IMG/VR virus record: IMGVR_UViG_3300032309_000634
Span: 19,791-83,790 of that record
Length of the DNA: 64,000 nt
Origin: a virus
Strand: one strand, 5' to 3'
Below the pieces are notes generated by a model. The model saw only the letters and a list, made by a program, of their open reading frames with translations. It was not told the DNA's origin and made no database searches. Each line of letters starts with the position of its first letter. Positions within the stretch are counted from its first letter, which is position 1. Shown here piece after piece: positions 21,453 through 31,361 of the stretch. A program made the translations under genes and the position numbers.

Positions 21453-22163
21453 TTAATTATATTTACTACTGTTGATATGGCAAATTTCAATTTCATTTAT
21501 ATTAACATGACTTGGTAATGATCCTACCCAATAAATAGCTTCTGCTAAATCTTCTGCGGTTAATGCATGATCCCGTTTTTGTTCTTGGGTATCAATAGTT
21601 GCTGGACAGATTTCTGTAATCTTAATTCCAAATTGAGGAAACTCAAGTCTCATTGTATCAATTAAACCACGCTCACCTCTTTTAGCATTTGTATAATTTC
21701 CTCCACCACGATATGGTACCTTGCCACCAAAAGAAGTAATAAAGATAATAGTTGGAGATTCTGACCTTTCCATACATGGAACAAAAAGTTGAGATAAGTA
21801 CATAGGGCCAGTAACATTTATGTCATAGGCTTTTCTAAAATTTTCTGGAGTCTCATTAATAATATGAGTTGGACCTGATCCTCCTCCAGCATTATTAACC
21901 AGAAGATCTAAAGTAATATCTTTGTATTTTTCAAAGAATACCTCTATTGCTTTAGAATCTGTTATGTCTAGGTTGTATACCTCAACATTGTCAGATATTA
22001 GTTTAGATACTTTTGAAAGATTTCTTGAAACAGCAATAACTTTGTATCCATTTTCAGACAGGCGTTTAACTGTTGCTAACCCTACACCCTTGCTTGCTCC
22101 AGTTACAATAGCTGTTTTAATATTAATGAATCCAATGTTGTGGAACCATAATCTTAGAACCAC
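21453..22163 (-). CDS. Short-chain dehydrogenase/reductase (YdfG-like); start uncertain (GTG 22163 or ATT 22121)
   Basis: TGASKGVG, NNAG, YTNAK motifs. Confidence 0.9.
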   Translation of the reverse strand: MVLRLWFHNIGFINIKTAIVTGASKGVGLATVKRLSENGYKVIAVSRNLSKVSKLISDNVEVYNLDITDSKAIEVFFEKYKDITLDLLVNNAGGGSGPTHIINETPENFRKAYDINVTGPMYLSQLFVPCMERSESPTIIFITSFGGKVPYRGGGNYTNAKRGERGLIDTMRLEFPQFGIKITEICPATIDTQEQKRDHALTAEDLAEAIYWVGSLPSHVNINEIEICHINSSKYN

Positions 22164-22752
22164 TCTTAACTAAGTGTGCTGTGTGGTGATATGGTGGTGA
22201 TGGTGGGAATACAATAATGCTGCCTGCTTTTGGTTTTACAGCAAATGTATAATTACCATTTTTTTCTGCTTCCGCAAAATCTGGTTCTGGGCTAGACGCT
22301 TGTAGTACTCCGTCTGGGGATGCAATAGTAAAAGATATTTCTCCGCCTTCGTAATCATCATTTAAGTACATAACGAAAGAAACCTTAAGTCTGTCGTCTC
22401 CTTCTTGCTGATCAAAGTGTGCCCCCATGTAAGTTCCAGCCTGATACTTTTTAATTGGATACATTGGGAATAGCTTAGGCTCATCTGTGATACCCTGTGC
22501 AGCAGCATAGTCTCTTGCTACATCATCAAATGCTTTTTGTAGGGTAGTATAGATATAGGTATTTTTTTCATCAGTTGTTTCTGTTAATGATATGCTTTTG
22601 TCTGTTCCATAGACATACTCTTGTCCACTACACGCCATCCATTCGCCCCAAGGATCTTGATTGTCATTCTCAATTGCTTCAACAAGTCTTTTTGGGTCTT
22701 CAATTACATTTGTGTAATAGTAAACTTTTTCTTCAAGTATTTCTCTATCCAT
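22123..22752 (-). CDS. 2OG-Fe(II) oxygenase, prolyl-4-hydroxylase-like
   Basis: HFD...YLNDDYEGGEI...H...K. Confidence 0.88.
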   Translation of the reverse strand: MDREILEEKVYYYTNVIEDPKRLVEAIENDNQDPWGEWMACSGQEYVYGTDKSISLTETTDEKNTYIYTTLQKAFDDVARDYAAAQGITDEPKLFPMYPIKKYQAGTYMGAHFDQQEGDDRLKVSFVMYLNDDYEGGEISFTIASPDGVLQASSPEPDFAEAEKNGNYTFAVKPKAGSIIVFPPSPPYHHTAHLVKSGSKIMVPQHWIH

Positions 22753-22762
22753 TTAGTGCCTC

Positions 22763-23422
22763 CTAGTACCTATTCTTTTTATAGTGATCTTTTTCTTTAA
22801 TGAATCCAACAAGAACATATCTTATTGGCCCATCTCCTACATGCTTGACCCCATGTTCATATTTTTCATCGCCTGGAAAAAATAGCATAGTTCCTGGTTT
22901 AGGCCTTAACTGGATATCAAGGTTTGGGAAAAATAACTCACCATCTACATAGTCATCATTAATATACACAATTGTAGCATATTTTATAGATGGGTCTGTT
23001 TTTTGATCCGTGTGAGATTTTAACTCTACCCCTGCCTGCATTCTTTGAATTGTTGCAAAACCACTTAAAATTAACTCTGGATCAGATTTTACTACCATTG
23101 AGTTTAAACCATCATATAATGGTCTGTATATCTCATGGTGTAATATATTAAAGTTTTTATCTTTCCAATTTTGAGTAACTTCAAACTTACCTTCAGCAAC
23201 CAGATTATCTACATCATCTCTACCAAATTTTTGCATACAGAAGTTTTTTAAGTTTGCGTGATACTCTACTTCCCAATCTTCTTGAGATGTACTATTTATA
23301 ATATCCCAAAAAATATTTATTTGATCTTGTGATAAAAAATTTTCAACAGAAAATAGTTCATCAGTGATATCTTTGACTACATAACCACTATCGGTCAACT
23401 GCTTTTTTAAGGAATCAATCAT
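22763..23422 (-). CDS. 2OG-Fe(II) oxygenase, prolyl-4-hydroxylase-like
   Basis: HTD...YINDDYVDGELFF...HGV...R. Confidence 0.88.
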   Translation of the reverse strand: MIDSLKKQLTDSGYVVKDITDELFSVENFLSQDQINIFWDIINSTSQEDWEVEYHANLKNFCMQKFGRDDVDNLVAEGKFEVTQNWKDKNFNILHHEIYRPLYDGLNSMVVKSDPELILSGFATIQRMQAGVELKSHTDQKTDPSIKYATIVYINDDYVDGELFFPNLDIQLRPKPGTMLFFPGDEKYEHGVKHVGDGPIRYVLVGFIKEKDHYKKNRY

Positions 23423-24170
23423 TTGTAATATCTTCTACCTTGTATTTATTTCCATTAGCATCTATCTTCCAGCCTTGCTTTAGAAGATCTTGCCATTCGG
23501 CTCTTTCAATTTCTTGTTGTGCTCTGGTTGCTTTCATTTCTTCAGCCCAAGCATCTCTTAGTTCCTGTGGATAATCAGACTCTTCTCTGTCGTCCCAGAA
23601 AGATCCAATGGTGTATCTTACTCCACTTTCTATTAAAGATACTTCGTGCATGTTGTTAAATCCCCCGTCAAATACGGCAAGCATTCCCACTTCTGGTTTA
23701 ATCTCTATGTTTTGATCTGGGAACTTAAGTAGTCCCCCTTCAAAATCATCATTAAGATATAGGAAGCCTGCATAACGACTTCTTGTAAATGCGCCTGAAT
23801 TCCCTTCAGCATCTGTGTTGTCCGAGTGTATTCTTGCATATGCTCCTGGCTCCCATTTTTGTGTATGGTATCCAATCTTAGAAATTATTTTTGGATCAAG
23901 GTCATGGACTGAAGCAATAGCCTCTGGCATTGTTTTTTCAATGTCTGAAAAAATGGTTGGAGATAGTTCAGCATCAAGTAATTCTTTATCATTGTCCTGT
24001 GGTAATACTGAAGAGTATGACTCGTAAAAAGAAATAGGCATCCAAGAGATTGCACCGTTGGCTGCTTGAGCATCTAAAGCCTGAATCATTTTTTTGCAAT
24101 CTTCTTTGCTTATAAAATCTTTATAAACTACTATGTCTTTTGTTAGTCTAACTTTATTGTTTAAATTCAT
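23415..24170 (-). CDS. 2OG-Fe(II) oxygenase, prolyl-4-hydroxylase-like
   Basis: HSD...YLNDDFEGG...HEV...R; start likely 24170, coupled to upstream stop. Confidence 0.88.
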   Translation of the reverse strand: MNLNNKVRLTKDIVVYKDFISKEDCKKMIQALDAQAANGAISWMPISFYESYSSVLPQDNDKELLDAELSPTIFSDIEKTMPEAIASVHDLDPKIISKIGYHTQKWEPGAYARIHSDNTDAEGNSGAFTRSRYAGFLYLNDDFEGGLLKFPDQNIEIKPEVGMLAVFDGGFNNMHEVSLIESGVRYTIGSFWDDREESDYPQELRDAWAEEMKATRAQQEIERAEWQDLLKQGWKIDANGNKYKVEDITND

Positions 24171-29878: not shown

Positions 29879-29914
29879 GGTAAACCCCTTTATTGTAGTT
29901 ATATAATAAAAAAA

Positions 29915-30361
29915 TTAAAGTTTTGGATTAGGTACATAATTTGGATTTTTAGGATTATAAGGACCATATTCTGGTAATTGTAAAAGTTCGGCAACTGTTC
30001 TACCTTTAAGATTAAACTTTTCGCCATCAAATGTGGCATTTGGAGCCATAACATAATATCCATAAGGATATTCATTTAAATCAAGAACTGTTGGGTTACT
30101 TAATAAAATTGAACCAAAATATTCATTGGTCTGATAAACTTCAATTTCATCATTTTCTTTAATAATTTGAAGGGTAGATCCATCATGCTCTGGATAATCA
30201 GAAGATATATCTGTAATACCTTTATTTTTTGTAAATAAATCAATACCATAAAGTGTTGCATTAAAATTATAAAGACACTCACCATCAATAACAAATACTA
30301 ATGGTGCTCCTGCTAACTTGTCTCTACTAAAAACATGTTGAATATCAATATCTTTAATCAT
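29915..30361 (-). CDS. Hypothetical protein
   Basis: 148-aa AT-rich ORF with AAGGA SD; LVFVIDGE and ATFDGEKF motifs. Confidence 0.6.
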   Translation of the reverse strand: MIKDIDIQHVFSRDKLAGAPLVFVIDGECLYNFNATLYGIDLFTKNKGITDISSDYPEHDGSTLQIIKENDEIEVYQTNEYFGSILLSNPTVLDLNEYPYGYYVMAPNATFDGEKFNLKGRTVAELLQLPEYGPYNPKNPNYVPNPKL

Positions 30362-30395
30362 TAGTTATCCTTTTCTTTAGATAAGTATATCATGC

Positions 30396-31361
30396 TTAGT
30401 AACAGGCTCTACCACTGTTTCCGTATACATAACACTGGTCGGGATAGCCACACATGTCATCGTAGAACTGCGAGTAGCTGCATCCATTTTGCGAAACGAA
30501 GGACGGGAAGAAAGGTGGGAAGAACGGGAAGAAAGGTGGGAAGAATGGGAAGAAAGGTGGGAAGAACGGGAAGAAAGGAGGGAAGAATGGAGGGAAGAAA
30601 GGTGGGAAGAACGGGAAAAAAGGTGGGAAGAACGGTGGAAAGAACGGAAAGAAAGGAAAGAACGGTGGGAAGAACGGTGGAAAGAAAGGAAAGAATGGTG
30701 GAAAAAATGGCGGGAAGAATGGGGCCAATGTAGTAATAGAACCAGATGCTGCAGAAGCAATGCTTGTACCATTGGCGTTAGTTGCAGTAACTGTATAGGT
30801 CTGTGACGTTCCAGCAGTATCTGCAATTACAATAGGAGAAGTGGCACCAGAGCCAGAAGTTCCATCACTACCTGTTACTGTAAAGCTTGAAATTGCTTTT
30901 CCACCTGTTGCTGGTGCTGAGAAGGCAATAGAGTTTGAGTTTACACCTGCGGTAGGTGTTGGAGCAGACATTTGAGCGGGAACTGTTGTTCCAGTTACTG
31001 AAGAAGATGTTGTTCCTGTTGCAGTACCAGCAGCATTTGATGCTCTAACTGTAAATGTATATGCTGTATTTGAAGCAAGTCCCTGAAATGTATAAGATGG
31101 GGTTGAACTTCCTGTTGTTACAGTATAAGTTGAAGGAGTTGTTGTAATTGTATAAGATGTTGCTGCTGGAGACAAAGCTGGAAGGGTCCATGCAAGGCTT
31201 GCAGCGGCTCCTGTGCCTGCTGCTGAAGCTGCTGAAGTAGTATTTGCGGTTGCTAAATAGGGACGGGATGTACCAACATCTGAGGCTGTTAAGCTTGTTA
31301 CATTTAATGGCTCTAAGAAATCATTAGAAGCTGATGAACGCTTACCTGTTTTTTTAGCCAT
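30396..31361 (-). CDS. FN3-domain protein with 75-residue Pro/Phe tract and Cys-rich tip
   Basis: Paralog of 28606..29583 (shared MAKKTGKRS..SNDFLEP start); P/F tract 30498-30722; C-terminus with 4 Cys. Confidence 0.85.
   Translation of the reverse strand: MAKKTGKRSSASNDFLEPLNVTSLTASDVGTSRPYLATANTTSAASAAGTGAAASLAWTLPALSPAATSYTITTTPSTYTVTTGSSTPSYTFQGLASNTAYTFTVRASNAAGTATGTTSSSVTGTTVPAQMSAPTPTAGVNSNSIAFSAPATGGKAISSFTVTGSDGTSGSGATSPIVIADTAGTSQTYTVTATNANGTSIASAASGSITTLAPFFPPFFPPFFPFFPPFFPPFFPFFPFFPPFFPPFFPFFPPFFPPFFPPFFPFFPPFFPFFPPFFPFFPPFFPSFVSQNGCSYSQFYDDMCGYPDQCYVYGNSGRACY

What the first reader, a model, noticed from the sequence alone, without database searches (positions are those of the whole stretch)
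21453..31361. Candidate virion-protein modification system: Pro/Phe-repeat substrates beside seven prolyl-hydroxylase-like oxygenases
Seen: two FN3 proteins with 75-79-residue P/F tracts are followed on the same strand by Cys-rich small proteins, seven 2OG-Fe(II) oxygenase-fold genes, two DUF6065-like genes and an SDR, many with overlapping stops and starts. The block sits inside the structural region. A third P/F protein (38225), a collagen-like protein (40704) and a GT32 glycosyltransferase (42235) lie nearby. Established: enzymes with HxD...YLNDDYEGG...H...K/R belong to the prolyl-4-hydroxylase branch, which acts on polyproline-II and collagen-like peptides; hydroxyproline can be glycosylated. 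Inference: a multi-enzyme pathway hydroxylates Pro and/or Phe, perhaps with further redox tailoring, on a surface fibre. This would be a RiPP-like or extensin-like modification rather than the generic 'auxiliary metabolic' role usually assigned to phage oxygenases.
Basis: partly seen in the sequence, partly recalled or inferred. Interest (0 to 1): 0.85.

Follow-up and report, generated by a model that had tools for sequence, protein, structure and literature searches.

The report
Phage Pro-Phe fibre tails with hydroxylase cassette
An uncultured lake phage encodes fibre-region proteins carrying long pure proline-phenylalanine tracts directly ahead of a conserved battery of collagen-hydroxylase-like enzymes, and tract and enzymes are gained and lost together in related phages, so the tract is a testable candidate substrate for phage oxygenases whose role has been unknown, though no chemistry has been shown.

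Summary
On the minus strand, 21453-31361 encodes two FN3 proteins with 73- and 79-residue Pro/Phe tracts and Cys-rich tails. Each is followed by a DUF6171 gene. Then come six canonical 2OG-Fe(II) oxygenases, one degenerate one, two DUF6065 genes and an SDR.

- PF13640 occurs in 43 of 50 viral records that carry the tract, against 5 of 48 random records.
- Loci fetched through DUF6065 alone have a P/F tract upstream in 31 of 31 and 47 of 48 cases with 5 kb or more of upstream sequence.
- Among 21 capsid-related records, four carry array, DUF6065 and tract together and 16 lack both tract and array; one has a tract only.
- A complete sister genome without the cassette carries the homologous FN3 protein with a Gly-rich tail instead.

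Most likely the cassette modifies the tract in the host cytoplasm, probably by prolyl hydroxylation (confidence 0.55).

Evidence against:
- Syn9 and S-SCSM1 have such arrays without P/F tracts.
- The collagen-like gene and the GT32 gene are not part of the conserved module.

This scan noted the same module before on other DNA (132 notes, at least 97 genomes). I found no published description. The closest is the Syn9 dioxygenase array (Iyer et al. 2010).

The parts
31375..33447 (-). Tail-fibre protein (690 aa) directly upstream of PF-A; context
   Evidence: Pfam Mtd_N 45.4 bits. Many PHROG tail-fibre families. Homologues precede the P/F gene in other lineages, e.g. L382 and G106.
30396..31361 (-). 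PF-A: FN3 protein, 73-aa Pro/Phe tract (DNA 30504-30722), 35-aa tail with 4 Cys
   Evidence: Against PF-B the tract has 22 synonymous and 0 non-synonymous codon differences.
29915..30361 (-). 148-aa protein of unknown function (U148); optional member of the module
   Evidence: No Pfam, PHROG or NCBIfam hit and no Atlas hit. The local model finds it in 7 of the 120 sources (window included), always between the P/F gene and DUF6171.
29645..29878 (-). DUF6171 small Cys4 protein (Z1), after PF-A
   Evidence: PF19668 28.6 bits; phrog_13558 at 2e-17. Across loci it is present only when the P/F protein has a tail with 4 or more Cys: 26 of 26 with DUF6171 against 12 of 39 without.
28606..29583 (-). 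PF-B: FN3 protein, 79-aa Pro/Phe tract (DNA 28753-28989), 48-aa tail with 6 Cys
28360..28560 (-). DUF6171 small Cys4 protein (Z2), after PF-B
   Evidence: PF19668 28.5 bits.
27806..28366 (-). Degenerate oxygenase 'a': DSBH-like, with the first iron-binding His replaced
   Evidence: PF13640 23.6 bits, below the cut-off of 27. Met stands at the His column of HxD. Orthologues occur in only 2 other loci, L131 and L150.
27005..27715 (-). Oxygenase 'b' (HxD...H...K), paired with D2
   Evidence: PF13640 42 bits. Its stop overlaps the start of D2; the same -1 or -4 overlap occurs in 85 of 95 loci.
26235..27005 (-). DUF6065-like protein D2
   Evidence: phrog_7084 at 4.4e-32; local DUF6065 model. 107 of its 127 best-match relatives in other loci are 50% or more identical.
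25569..26225 (-). Oxygenase 'c', paired with D1
   Evidence: PF13640 55.7 bits. Best solved relative is Bacillus anthracis P4H, E 2.4e-5. Overlap of -1 or -4 with D1 in 95 of 103 loci.
24853..25569 (-). DUF6065 protein D1
   Evidence: PF19541 89.1 bits. Invariant W25, C37, G47 and G151 over 36 sequences. The family model hits Syn9 gp43 at 4.2e-20.
24170..24850 (-). Oxygenase 'd'
   Evidence: PF13640 34.6 bits; solved relatives are P4Hs and P3H1.
23415..24221 (-). Oxygenase 'e' (likely start ATG at 24170, overlapping the stop of 'd' by 1 nt)
   Evidence: PF13640 34.1 bits; start codons.
22763..23422 (-). Oxygenase 'f'
   Evidence: PF13640 40.7 bits.
22123..22752 (-). Oxygenase 'g'
   Evidence: PF13640 42.6 bits.
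21453..22163 (-). Classical short-chain dehydrogenase/reductase, last gene of the cassette
   Evidence: adh_short 138.1 bits. It stands at the 3' end of the cassette in many other loci.
38225..38938 (-). PF-C: third P/F protein; the 31-aa tract (DNA 38504-38596) links two FN3-like parts; not adjacent to the cassette
   Evidence: Likely start ATG at 38908.

Best explanation
The block is one copy of a widespread accessory module of freshwater tailed phages. Its first gene or genes encode a fibre-region FN3 protein with a tail made almost only of PPFF and PFF units. The genes behind it encode a fixed, ordered set of old, diverged 2OG/Fe(II) oxygenases of the collagen prolyl/lysyl-hydroxylase branch. 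Two of these are each translationally coupled to a DUF6065 protein, which is the family of the Syn9 protein described in print as having a dUTPase fold and a conserved Cys. An SDR closes the set.

Most likely the enzymes act in the infected cell's cytoplasm on the Pro/Phe tract before virion assembly. The primary reaction would be hydroxylation of the prolines. The different paralogues would serve different positions or carbons. The SDR would possibly oxidise a hydroxyl further. The result would turn a very hydrophobic polymer into a soluble, stiff polyproline-II-type stalk that holds a Cys-rich tip away from the fibre. The DUF6171 proteins serve the Cys-rich tip rather than the tract.

Shown: the gene content, the conserved order, the coupling, the co-occurrence and co-loss, and purifying selection on the tract.

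Inferred: that the tract is the substrate, which residue is modified, what the product is, and that the protein is on the virion.
For: 1. Record-level association. PF13640 is present in 43 of 50 viral records fetched by the P/F DNA pattern, mostly 6-11 matches each. It is present in 5 of 48 records fetched by an arbitrary 14-mer, one match each. Fisher p = 7e-15.

2. Adjacency, forward direction. 58 of 69 P/F genes with 3 kb or more of downstream sequence have an oxygenase or DUF6065 gene within 3 kb on the same strand.

3. Adjacency, reverse direction, independent of the tract.
- Loci fetched with DUF6065-D1: 31 of 31 with 5 kb or more upstream have a tract upstream on the same strand.
- Loci fetched with a DUF6065 only about 29% identical to D1: 47 of 48.
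- Five apparent exceptions all had tracts when the whole records were scanned.
- 8 of 8 DUF6065 clusters (50% identity) with upstream coverage show the association.

4. Gain and loss together among 21 records with a 76-96% identical capsid protein.
- Array, DUF6065 and tract occur together in 4 records. 16 have neither tract nor array (3 of them carry a weak DUF6065-like hit, one a lone oxygenase), and one has a tract only, near a contig end. Fisher p = 8e-4.
- The complete genome G106 keeps the FN3 homologue (54% identical) at the same place, with a roughly 200-aa Gly-rich tail and no cassette.

5. Differing carriers. The same ordered cassette follows P/F proteins whose C-terminal parts differ: Cys tail...FK end, Hint-like domain, internal linker.

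6. Old, differentiated enzymes.
- Each paralogue has best-match relatives of up to 92-98% identity in other loci; most are 50% or more identical for b, c, d, e, f and both DUF6065 genes, but only 34 of 86 for g.
- Paralogues are 18-42% identical to each other.
- The b-D2 and c-D1 junctions overlap by 1 or 4 nt in 85 of 95 and 95 of 103 loci.

7. Family placement. The nearest solved relatives are protein Pro/Lys hydroxylases. Six paralogues keep HxD...H...K/R.

8. The tract is translated and constrained: 22 synonymous against 0 non-synonymous differences between the two copies.

9. Other candidates are not consistent neighbours. Collagen-like ORFs occur in 0 of 78 and 2 of 75 reverse-set loci, and the GT32 homologue in 3 other loci.
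Against: - No biochemical or mass-spectrometric datum exists.
- Similarity to characterised P4Hs is weak (E 1e-5 to 1e-3). No known P4H takes a Pro-Phe polymer (recalled, not tested).
- Syn9 has a dioxygenase array with a DUF6065 homologue, and S-SCSM1 has 2OG blocks, yet neither record has a P/F tract. Such arrays can therefore serve something else.
- Gene order in phage structural modules is conserved by descent. The non-tract parts of the P/F proteins fall into only two large homology groups (166 and 43 of 239), so the number of independent events is small.
- 11 of 69 P/F genes, including PF-C of this window, have no oxygenase within 3 kb.
- Six to ten different enzymes seem too many for a two-letter polymer.
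- In the nearest viral precedent, hydroxyproline was not detected in PBCV-1 virions (Chloroviruses review PMC7019647, passage read).
- No RNA run holds the stretch.
Confidence: 0.55

Rival explanations
1. The cassette tailors a small molecule or a non-ribosomal or host peptide (secondary-metabolite reading of Iyer et al. 2010), or simply consumes 2OG to shift host nitrogen signalling (Sullivan et al. 2010). The P/F protein is then an unrelated structural neighbour.
For: - Iyer et al. (PMC2938197, passages read) describe the Syn9 array of ten dioxygenases, two tryptophan halogenases and a dUTPase-fold Cys protein, and propose metabolite synthesis.
- Syn9 gp43 matches my DUF6065 model at 4.2e-20, and Syn9 has no P/F tract.
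- Sullivan et al. (PMC3037559, passages read) propose roles in 2OG levels or DNA repair.
- Multi-oxygenase pathways on one small scaffold are known; that paper cites cephamycin.
Against: - The cassette holds no scaffold-making enzyme. All 15 genes of the block are accounted for.
- It is gained and lost with the tract among sister phages, and a sister without it has swapped the tail of the same protein.
- It always lies directly behind the P/F gene, in two DUF6065 lineages only about 29% identical to each other.
- The nearest solved relatives are protein hydroxylases.
Confidence: 0.15
2. The enzymes modify proteins, but not the tract. The target would be the tail fibres, the FN3 domains, the Cys-rich tips, the collagen-like protein or a host surface protein. 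The P/F tract is an unmodified spacer that belongs to the same fibre module.
For: - In Syn9 and S-SCSM1 the arrays lie beside tail-fibre genes that have no P/F tract. S-SCSM1 gene 245 ('short tail fiber') has a long Arg/Pro/Phe-rich tract between two oxygenase blocks.
- A collagen-like gene lies next to the P/F gene in G115 and 9 kb away in the window.
- DUF6171 tracks Cys-rich tails.
Against: - Collagen-like ORFs are absent from 78 of 78 and 73 of 75 DUF6065-fetched loci.
- Cassettes follow P/F proteins with and without Cys tails.
- G106 keeps the fibres and the FN3 domains but lost both the tract and the cassette.
Confidence: 0.17
3. The oxygenases act on nucleic acid (AlkB- or TET/JBP-like repair or base modification), or they are a defence or counter-defence island.
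For: - Weak Tet_JBP hits below the cut-off for 24170-24850 (21.9 bits, cut-off 34.9) and for 58363-58884.
- PHROG labels such as 'DNA endonuclease' on the same families.
- The block borders a ribonucleotide reductase.
Against: - PF13640 is the best family for all six.
- No AlkB, TET or JBP model reaches its cut-off.
- The solved relatives are protein hydroxylases.
- The link to the tract would go unexplained.
Confidence: 0.05

Closest known systems
Tandem dioxygenase array of Synechococcus phage Syn9, gp41-gp54 (Iyer, Abhiman, de Souza, Aravind, NAR 2010; PMC2938197, passages read)
   Same: - Several distantly related classical 2OG/Fe(II) dioxygenases stand in tandem with a dUTPase-fold protein that has a conserved Cys. 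Syn9 gp43 hits my DUF6065 model at 4.2e-20, and gp50 and gp51 hit my oxygenase model.
- The array lies just downstream of tail-fibre genes.
   Different: - Syn9 has two tryptophan halogenases and a JmjC/MINA member. It has one DUF6065 gene, not two coupled ones, and no SDR.
- No P/F tract occurs anywhere in its 177,300-base record.
- The paper proposed secondary-metabolite synthesis and named no protein substrate.
Chlorovirus PBCV-1 prolyl 4-hydroxylase A085R and that virus's Pro-rich repeat peptides (Eriksson et al. 1999, seen only as a citation in the Chloroviruses review PMC7019647)
   Same: - A virus-encoded P4H-type enzyme.
[quoted passage not shown]
   Different: - It is one enzyme, not a battery.
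- It belongs to a eukaryotic virus.
- Its repeats are not Pro/Phe.
- It is not encoded beside a dedicated substrate gene.
- Hydroxyproline was not detected in virions according to the review.
Collagen, bacterial and mimivirus prolyl/lysyl hydroxylases (Bacillus anthracis P4H 3itq/5hv0, LH3 6fxk, mimivirus L230 6ax6)
   Same: - They are the best solved sequence relatives of oxygenases c and d.
- They share the HxD...H...K/R motifs and act on repetitive Pro-rich polymers.
   Different: - Similarity is weak (E 2.4e-5 at best) and confined to the catalytic core.
- Their substrates are Gly-X-Y repeats, which the tract lacks.
Plant and algal hydroxyproline-rich glycoproteins (extensins) and their P4H plus glycosyltransferase pathway (recalled; only a search listing seen for PMC11015965)
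   Same: The idea of a Pro-rich polyproline-II rod made stiff and soluble by hydroxylation.
   Different: - No Ser-Pro(n) motif is present.
- No glycosyltransferase belongs to the conserved cassette: the GT32 homologue is found in only 3 other loci.
- Half of the residues are Phe.
RiPP biosynthetic clusters
   Same: - A ribosomal substrate gene stands first, with tailoring enzymes behind it on one strand.
- The tract is the only feature shared by differing carriers.
   Different: - The carrier is a folded 320-aa structural protein.
- No leader peptide, recognition element, protease or exporter was found.

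Membership tests
2OG-Fe(II) oxygenase, PF13640 / prolyl 4-hydroxylase branch | Score over the curated Pfam cut-off (27 bits) | tested here: met
   Six genes score 34.1-55.7 bits. The seventh (27806-28366) scores 23.6 bits, so it does not meet the cut-off.
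2OG-Fe(II) oxygenase, PF13640 / prolyl 4-hydroxylase branch | Iron triad HxD...H and a basic residue for the 2OG C5 carboxylate | tested here: met
   Alignment A3: HxD, the distal His and K/R are present in six genes. 27806-28366 has Met at the first His.
2OG-Fe(II) oxygenase, PF13640 / prolyl 4-hydroxylase branch | Significant sequence relation to enzymes with proven prolyl hydroxylase activity | tested here: inconclusive
   Bacillus anthracis P4H is the top solved hit, but at E 2.4e-5 (c) and 1.6e-3 (d). Lysyl hydroxylases and PiuC score close behind. NCBIfam gives only sub-threshold hits.
2OG-Fe(II) oxygenase, PF13640 / prolyl 4-hydroxylase branch | Hydroxylation of peptidyl proline | not testable with these tools
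   This needs an enzyme assay or mass spectrometry.
Syn9-type tandem dioxygenase array | Several distantly related classical dioxygenases in tandem on one strand | tested here: met
   Six or seven in tandem, 18-42% identical to each other.
Syn9-type tandem dioxygenase array | dUTPase-fold protein with a conserved Cys in the array | tested here: met
   The DUF6065 model built from this module hits Syn9 gp43 at 4.2e-20, and C37 is invariant in 36 sequences.
Syn9-type tandem dioxygenase array | Tryptophan halogenases and a JmjC/MINA member | tested here: not met
   No such Pfam hit in any of the 15 genes of the block.
RiPP cluster | Short precursor with leader and core, and a protease or exporter that releases the product | tested here: not met
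   The carriers are 321- and 325-aa FN3 proteins. No peptidase or transporter family is in the block.
DUF6065 (PF19541) | Score over the curated cut-off (26.6 bits) | tested here: met
   24853-25569 scores 89.1 bits. 26235-27005 is recognised only through phrog_7084 (4.4e-32) and the local model.
Collagen / extensin-type substrate | Gly-X-Y or Ser-Pro(n) repeat | tested here: not met
   Over 186 distinct tracts the units are PPFF (1573), PFF (722) and PPYF (299).

The most novel reading that the evidence does not exclude
The cassette converts a genetically encoded Pro/Phe polymer into a new kind of cured protein material. The polymer would be multiply oxidised: several hydroxylations per unit on Pro and perhaps on the Phe beta-carbon, then ketone formation by the SDR. 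The DUF6065 Cys proteins would be a new class of partner enzyme for 2OG oxygenases, for example carrying or cross-linking the oxidised intermediate. The product would be a stiff or adhesive stalk on phage fibres. This would give the abundant 'auxiliary metabolic' 2OG oxygenases of aquatic phages a structural role instead of a metabolic one.
Probability: 0.15. Interest if true: 0.9.

Novelty: new variant of a known kind. Interest (0 to 1): 0.72.

Why it matters
2OG-Fe(II) oxygenase genes are among the commonest unexplained genes of aquatic phages. The papers I read treat them as metabolic or repair genes and state that their functions have not been investigated (PMC3037559, PMC9602691; passages read). 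This module offers a concrete substrate that can be expressed in the laboratory, with a clear read-out: +16 Da ladders on a 73-79-residue tract.

If confirmed, it would show that phages post-translationally tailor their own fibre proteins with a dedicated enzyme battery. It would also assign functions to DUF6065 and DUF6171 and define a new Pro/Phe polymer with possible value as a material.

The module is abundant.

Tried and rejected
Searches and tools that gave nothing:
No fold search was therefore possible. The dUTPase fold rests on Iyer et al. and on weak hits in solved structures.
- DUF6065 against the oxygenases by hhalign: no relation (probability 0.1).
- Cultured phages: megablast of the block, tblastn of PF-B and tblastn of DUF6065-D1 all found nothing. 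The PF-B query is low-complexity and therefore filtered.
- Fused DUF6065 forms: none among longer proteins, which is weak evidence.
- Atlas search for the 148-aa protein: nothing.
- Bacterial genomes: 5 hits only, all on short contigs in lake MAGs assigned to four different lineages. These are probably mis-binned phage DNA, so they say nothing about the host.
- RNA: no RNA holder is listed for the stretch, so nothing can be said on expression. Contigs of four lake-water runs from four studies cover most of the cassette at 90-99% likeness. I use this only as support for a freshwater habitat.

Ideas tested and dropped:
- Collagen-like protein as the general substrate: rejected.
- GT32 as a module member: rejected.
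- A link between the extra oxygenase found between d and e and the Tyr content of the tract: none (p = 0.25).
- Hint domain behind some tracts: only a sub-threshold Hint_2 hit (E 0.003), so it remains a lead.

Literature searches:
- 'DUF6065': 0 papers.
- P4H + phage + 2OG-Fe + virion; phage + tail fiber + hydroxylation and related terms; 'PPFF' + phage. Judging from titles and abstract starts, none lists a paper on this module.
- Supplements were closed. The supplementary data and Figure 4 of Iyer et al. may name the Syn9 dUTPase-fold gene; I could not see them.

A flaw in my own method: my ORF caller missed P/F genes that lack an ATG, GTG or TTG start. I therefore recounted from stop-to-stop frames.

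Full report
WHAT IS THERE

The window is bases 19791-83790 of an 83,790-base IMG/VR virus record that CheckV rates 77% complete. It is a tailed phage. It has a tape-measure-size ORF, a major head protein, a protease, a portal, tail-fibre genes and a ribonucleotide reductase. The portal's nearest cultured relatives are Streptomyces phages at 46% identity. Contigs of lake-water metagenomes from four studies cover most of the block at 90-99% likeness. So this is a freshwater phage, and an actinobacterial host is a weak inference.

Between the fibre gene 31375-33447 (Mtd_N domain) and the reductase 19260-21290, fifteen genes lie on the minus strand. In order of transcription they are:
- PF-A (fn3; 73-aa P/F tract; 4-Cys tail)
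- a 148-aa unknown
- DUF6171
- PF-B (fn3; 79-aa tract; 6-Cys tail)
- DUF6171
- a degenerate oxygenase 'a'
- oxygenase b, then DUF6065-like D2
- oxygenase c, then DUF6065 D1
- oxygenases d, e, f and g
- a classical SDR

Six oxygenases pass the PF13640 cut-off and keep HxD...H...K/R. The seventh scores 23.6 bits against a cut-off of 27 and has Met in place of the first His.

The tracts are real coding sequence. PF-A and PF-B differ in the tract by 22 synonymous and no non-synonymous codons.

IS THE LINK BETWEEN TRACT AND ENZYMES MORE THAN LOCAL COINCIDENCE?

Forward direction:
- Of the first 50 records, 43 hold PF13640, 42 of them over the cut-off and most with 6-11 matches.
- An arbitrary 14-mer gave a control sample. 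There, 5 of 48 records hold PF13640, 3 over the cut-off, one match each. Fisher p = 7e-15.
- None of the 120 control loci has a P/F tract.
- I built local profiles from the window's own genes. With them, the gene maps show a recurrent same-strand order: P/F gene, sometimes the 148-aa gene, sometimes DUF6171, then b-D2-c-D1-d-(extra oxygenase)-e-f-g-SDR.
- 58 of 69 P/F genes with 3 kb or more of downstream sequence have an oxygenase or DUF6065 gene within 3 kb on the same strand. Most of the misses are proteins in which the tract is an internal linker, like PF-C here.

Reverse direction, with loci fetched without reference to the tract:
- DUF6065-D1 relatives (at least 576 stretches, best 80 kept, 74-97% identical): 31 of 31 loci with 5 kb or more upstream carry a tract upstream on the same strand.
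- Relatives of a DUF6065 that is only about 29% identical to D1, partly from 170-kb contigs: 47 of 48. In the one miss the upstream space is filled with oxygenase genes.
- Eight loci looked like exceptions. I re-examined five of them on whole records, and all five have tracts. My ORF caller had missed a gene without a standard start codon.

Sister phages:
- I examined 21 long records whose capsid protein is 76-96% identical to the window's.
- Four have the oxygenase array (6-13 matches), DUF6065 over its cut-off, and the tract.
- Sixteen have neither an array nor a tract. Among these, three carry only a weak D2-like gene and one carries a lone oxygenase.
- One has a tract near its contig end only. 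Fisher p = 8e-4.
- Among records 75% or more complete, counting the window, three have both, three have neither and none is discordant.
- In the complete, terminally repeated genome G106, the position between fibre and reductase is held by a homologue of the PF-B FN3 part (54% identical). Its tail is about 200 residues of Gly-rich sequence, and there is no cassette.

Tract and cassette therefore behave as one accessory unit.

Limits of this evidence:
- Once the tract is masked, the P/F proteins fall into two large homology groups (166 and 43 of 239 frames).
- The DUF6065 genes fall into a handful of deep clusters. 8 of 8 clusters with upstream coverage show the association, but part of that set had been fetched through the tract.
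- The number of independent events is therefore small. Conserved order in a structural module can be inherited without an enzyme-substrate relation.

WHAT THE PARTS SUGGEST

- Enzyme differentiation. The paralogues are 18-42% identical to each other. Each has best-match relatives of up to 92-98% identity in other loci, and most are 50% or more identical for all but g, where 34 of 86 are. The set is old and functionally differentiated, not a recent expansion.
- Translational coupling. The stop of b overlaps the start of D2 by 1 or 4 nt in 85 of 95 loci, and c overlaps D1 in 95 of 103. D2-c is usually separated by 8-11 nt. This points to two oxygenase/DUF6065 pairs made in equal amounts.
- DUF6065. 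It has no solved relative; the best E is 0.75, with weak dUTPase hits at 0.86 and 2.4. It has no detectable relation to the oxygenases. It has an invariant Cys. Its profile hits Syn9 gp43 at 4.2e-20. [quoted passage not shown] I take gp43 to be that protein, but I could not see their figure or supplement.
- Solved relatives of the oxygenases. For c and d they are Bacillus anthracis P4H, LH3, mimivirus lysyl hydroxylase, PiuC, P4H alpha-2 and P3H1, at weak E-values.
- DUF6171. It sits between the P/F gene and b only when the P/F protein ends in a tail with 4 or more Cys: 26 of 26 with DUF6171 against 12 of 39 without (Fisher 2.9e-9, not corrected for relatedness). In the window each Cys-tailed P/F gene has its own DUF6171. 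I therefore assign DUF6171 to the tip, not to the tract.
- Tract composition. Over 186 distinct tracts the units are PPFF (1573), PFF (722) and PPYF (299), with a median length of 55.5 residues and a range of 14-166. The length varies freely, as expected of a spacer or stalk.

MOST LIKELY MECHANISM (INFERENCE)

The cassette modifies the tract in the cytoplasm before assembly. The core reaction would be hydroxylation of proline, with different paralogues, two of them working with DUF6065 partners, serving different positions or carbons. The SDR possibly oxidises a hydroxyl. The effect would be to make a polymer that is 55% Phe soluble and to stiffen it as a polyproline-II-like stalk bearing a Cys-rich tip. 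I put this at 0.55. The identity of the modified residue is less certain than the identity of the substrate.

RIVALS

- Small-molecule tailoring or 2OG consumption, as proposed in print: 0.15.
- Protein modification of something other than the tract: 0.17.
- A nucleic-acid or defence role: 0.05.

The strongest counter-evidence is that Syn9 (177,300 bases) and S-SCSM1 (228,827 bases) have no PP[FY]F pattern at all although they carry such arrays. In both, the arrays flank tail-fibre genes. One S-SCSM1 fibre gene has a long Arg/Pro/Phe-rich tract. That fits a broader idea that such arrays serve fibre proteins, but it proves nothing.

COMPARISON WITH WHAT IS KNOWN, AND NOVELTY

The module works most like a dedicated protein-hydroxylation system: collagen or extensin P4Hs, and the PBCV-1 P4H with Pro-rich peptides. 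Its gene content places it in the Syn9 type of tandem dioxygenase array. It differs in having a dedicated Pro/Phe polymer gene at its head, two coupled DUF6065 genes and an SDR, and in lacking halogenases and JmjC members. It is not a RiPP cluster in the strict sense.

I found no paper on it. 'DUF6065' gives 0 papers. Searches on P4H, phage and virion, on phage, tail fiber and hydroxylation, and on PPFF and phage list nothing on it, judging from titles and abstract starts. The cyanophage literature I read in passages calls these oxygenases uninvestigated (PMC9602691).

The scan itself has noted the same module before on other DNA: 132 notes in at least 97 genomes. Those notes gave me the leads to the Syn9 paper, to PBCV-1, to the dUTPase fold and to the co-loss test. 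I checked each of these here.

I rate it a new variant of a known kind, with interest 0.72.

Noticed in passing
window 43217-43477 (+) and 58363-58884 (+): A third DUF6171 gene (37.1 bits) and an eighth PF13640 oxygenase (35.4 bits) lie outside the block on the other strand. The cassette-less sister genome G106 also keeps a DUF6171 gene directly followed by a lone oxygenase (L483 2265-3099).
   Followed up: partly
L483 16586-17896 (G106, complete sister genome): The homologue of the PF-B FN3 part carries a tail of about 200 aa of Gly-rich sequence instead of the P/F tract and Cys tip. The low-complexity tail of this fibre-end protein is therefore swappable.
   Followed up: partly
L040 6071-7390, L007 3762-5012 and other 'Ph' loci: In some phages the P/F tract is followed by a Cys-x-x-x-D-T-L-I type segment that resembles the start of a Hint/intein domain. 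Pfam Hint_2 gives only E 0.003, below its cut-off. If real, the tract's C-terminus would be released or transferred by self-cleavage.
   Followed up: partly
L382 about 2700-3160: A small P/F gene has no ATG, GTG or TTG in its frame upstream of the tract. An ATG lies five codons before an in-frame stop (MLSQL*). This could mean an unusual start, readthrough or a sequencing error.
   Followed up: no
L198 8117-9382 (Synechococcus phage S-SCSM1 gene 245): This 'short tail fiber' gene lies between two blocks of 2OG oxygenase genes. It has a central tract of roughly 250 aa rich in Arg, Pro and Phe (RQPRNFR-like units), and the record has no P/F tract.
   Followed up: no
L486-L490 (genome contigs): The only five matches to DUF6065-D1 in 185,579 species genomes are short contigs in lake MAGs labelled Flavobacteriales, Luteolibacter, Beijerinckiaceae and Acidimicrobiaceae. 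They are probably phage contigs binned by mistake.
   Followed up: no
window 2-6019 (-): A very long tape-measure-size ORF (2006 aa or more, open at the window's end) lies here. Earlier notes of this scan on the same genome describe enzyme domains inside it. I did not examine it.
   Followed up: no
window 28732-29000 and 30392-30806 (+): The strand opposite the P/F tracts gives long open frames of EERWEEW- and GRKVGR-type repeats. These are mirror products of the repeat, not genes, and they can mislead ORF callers.
   Followed up: no
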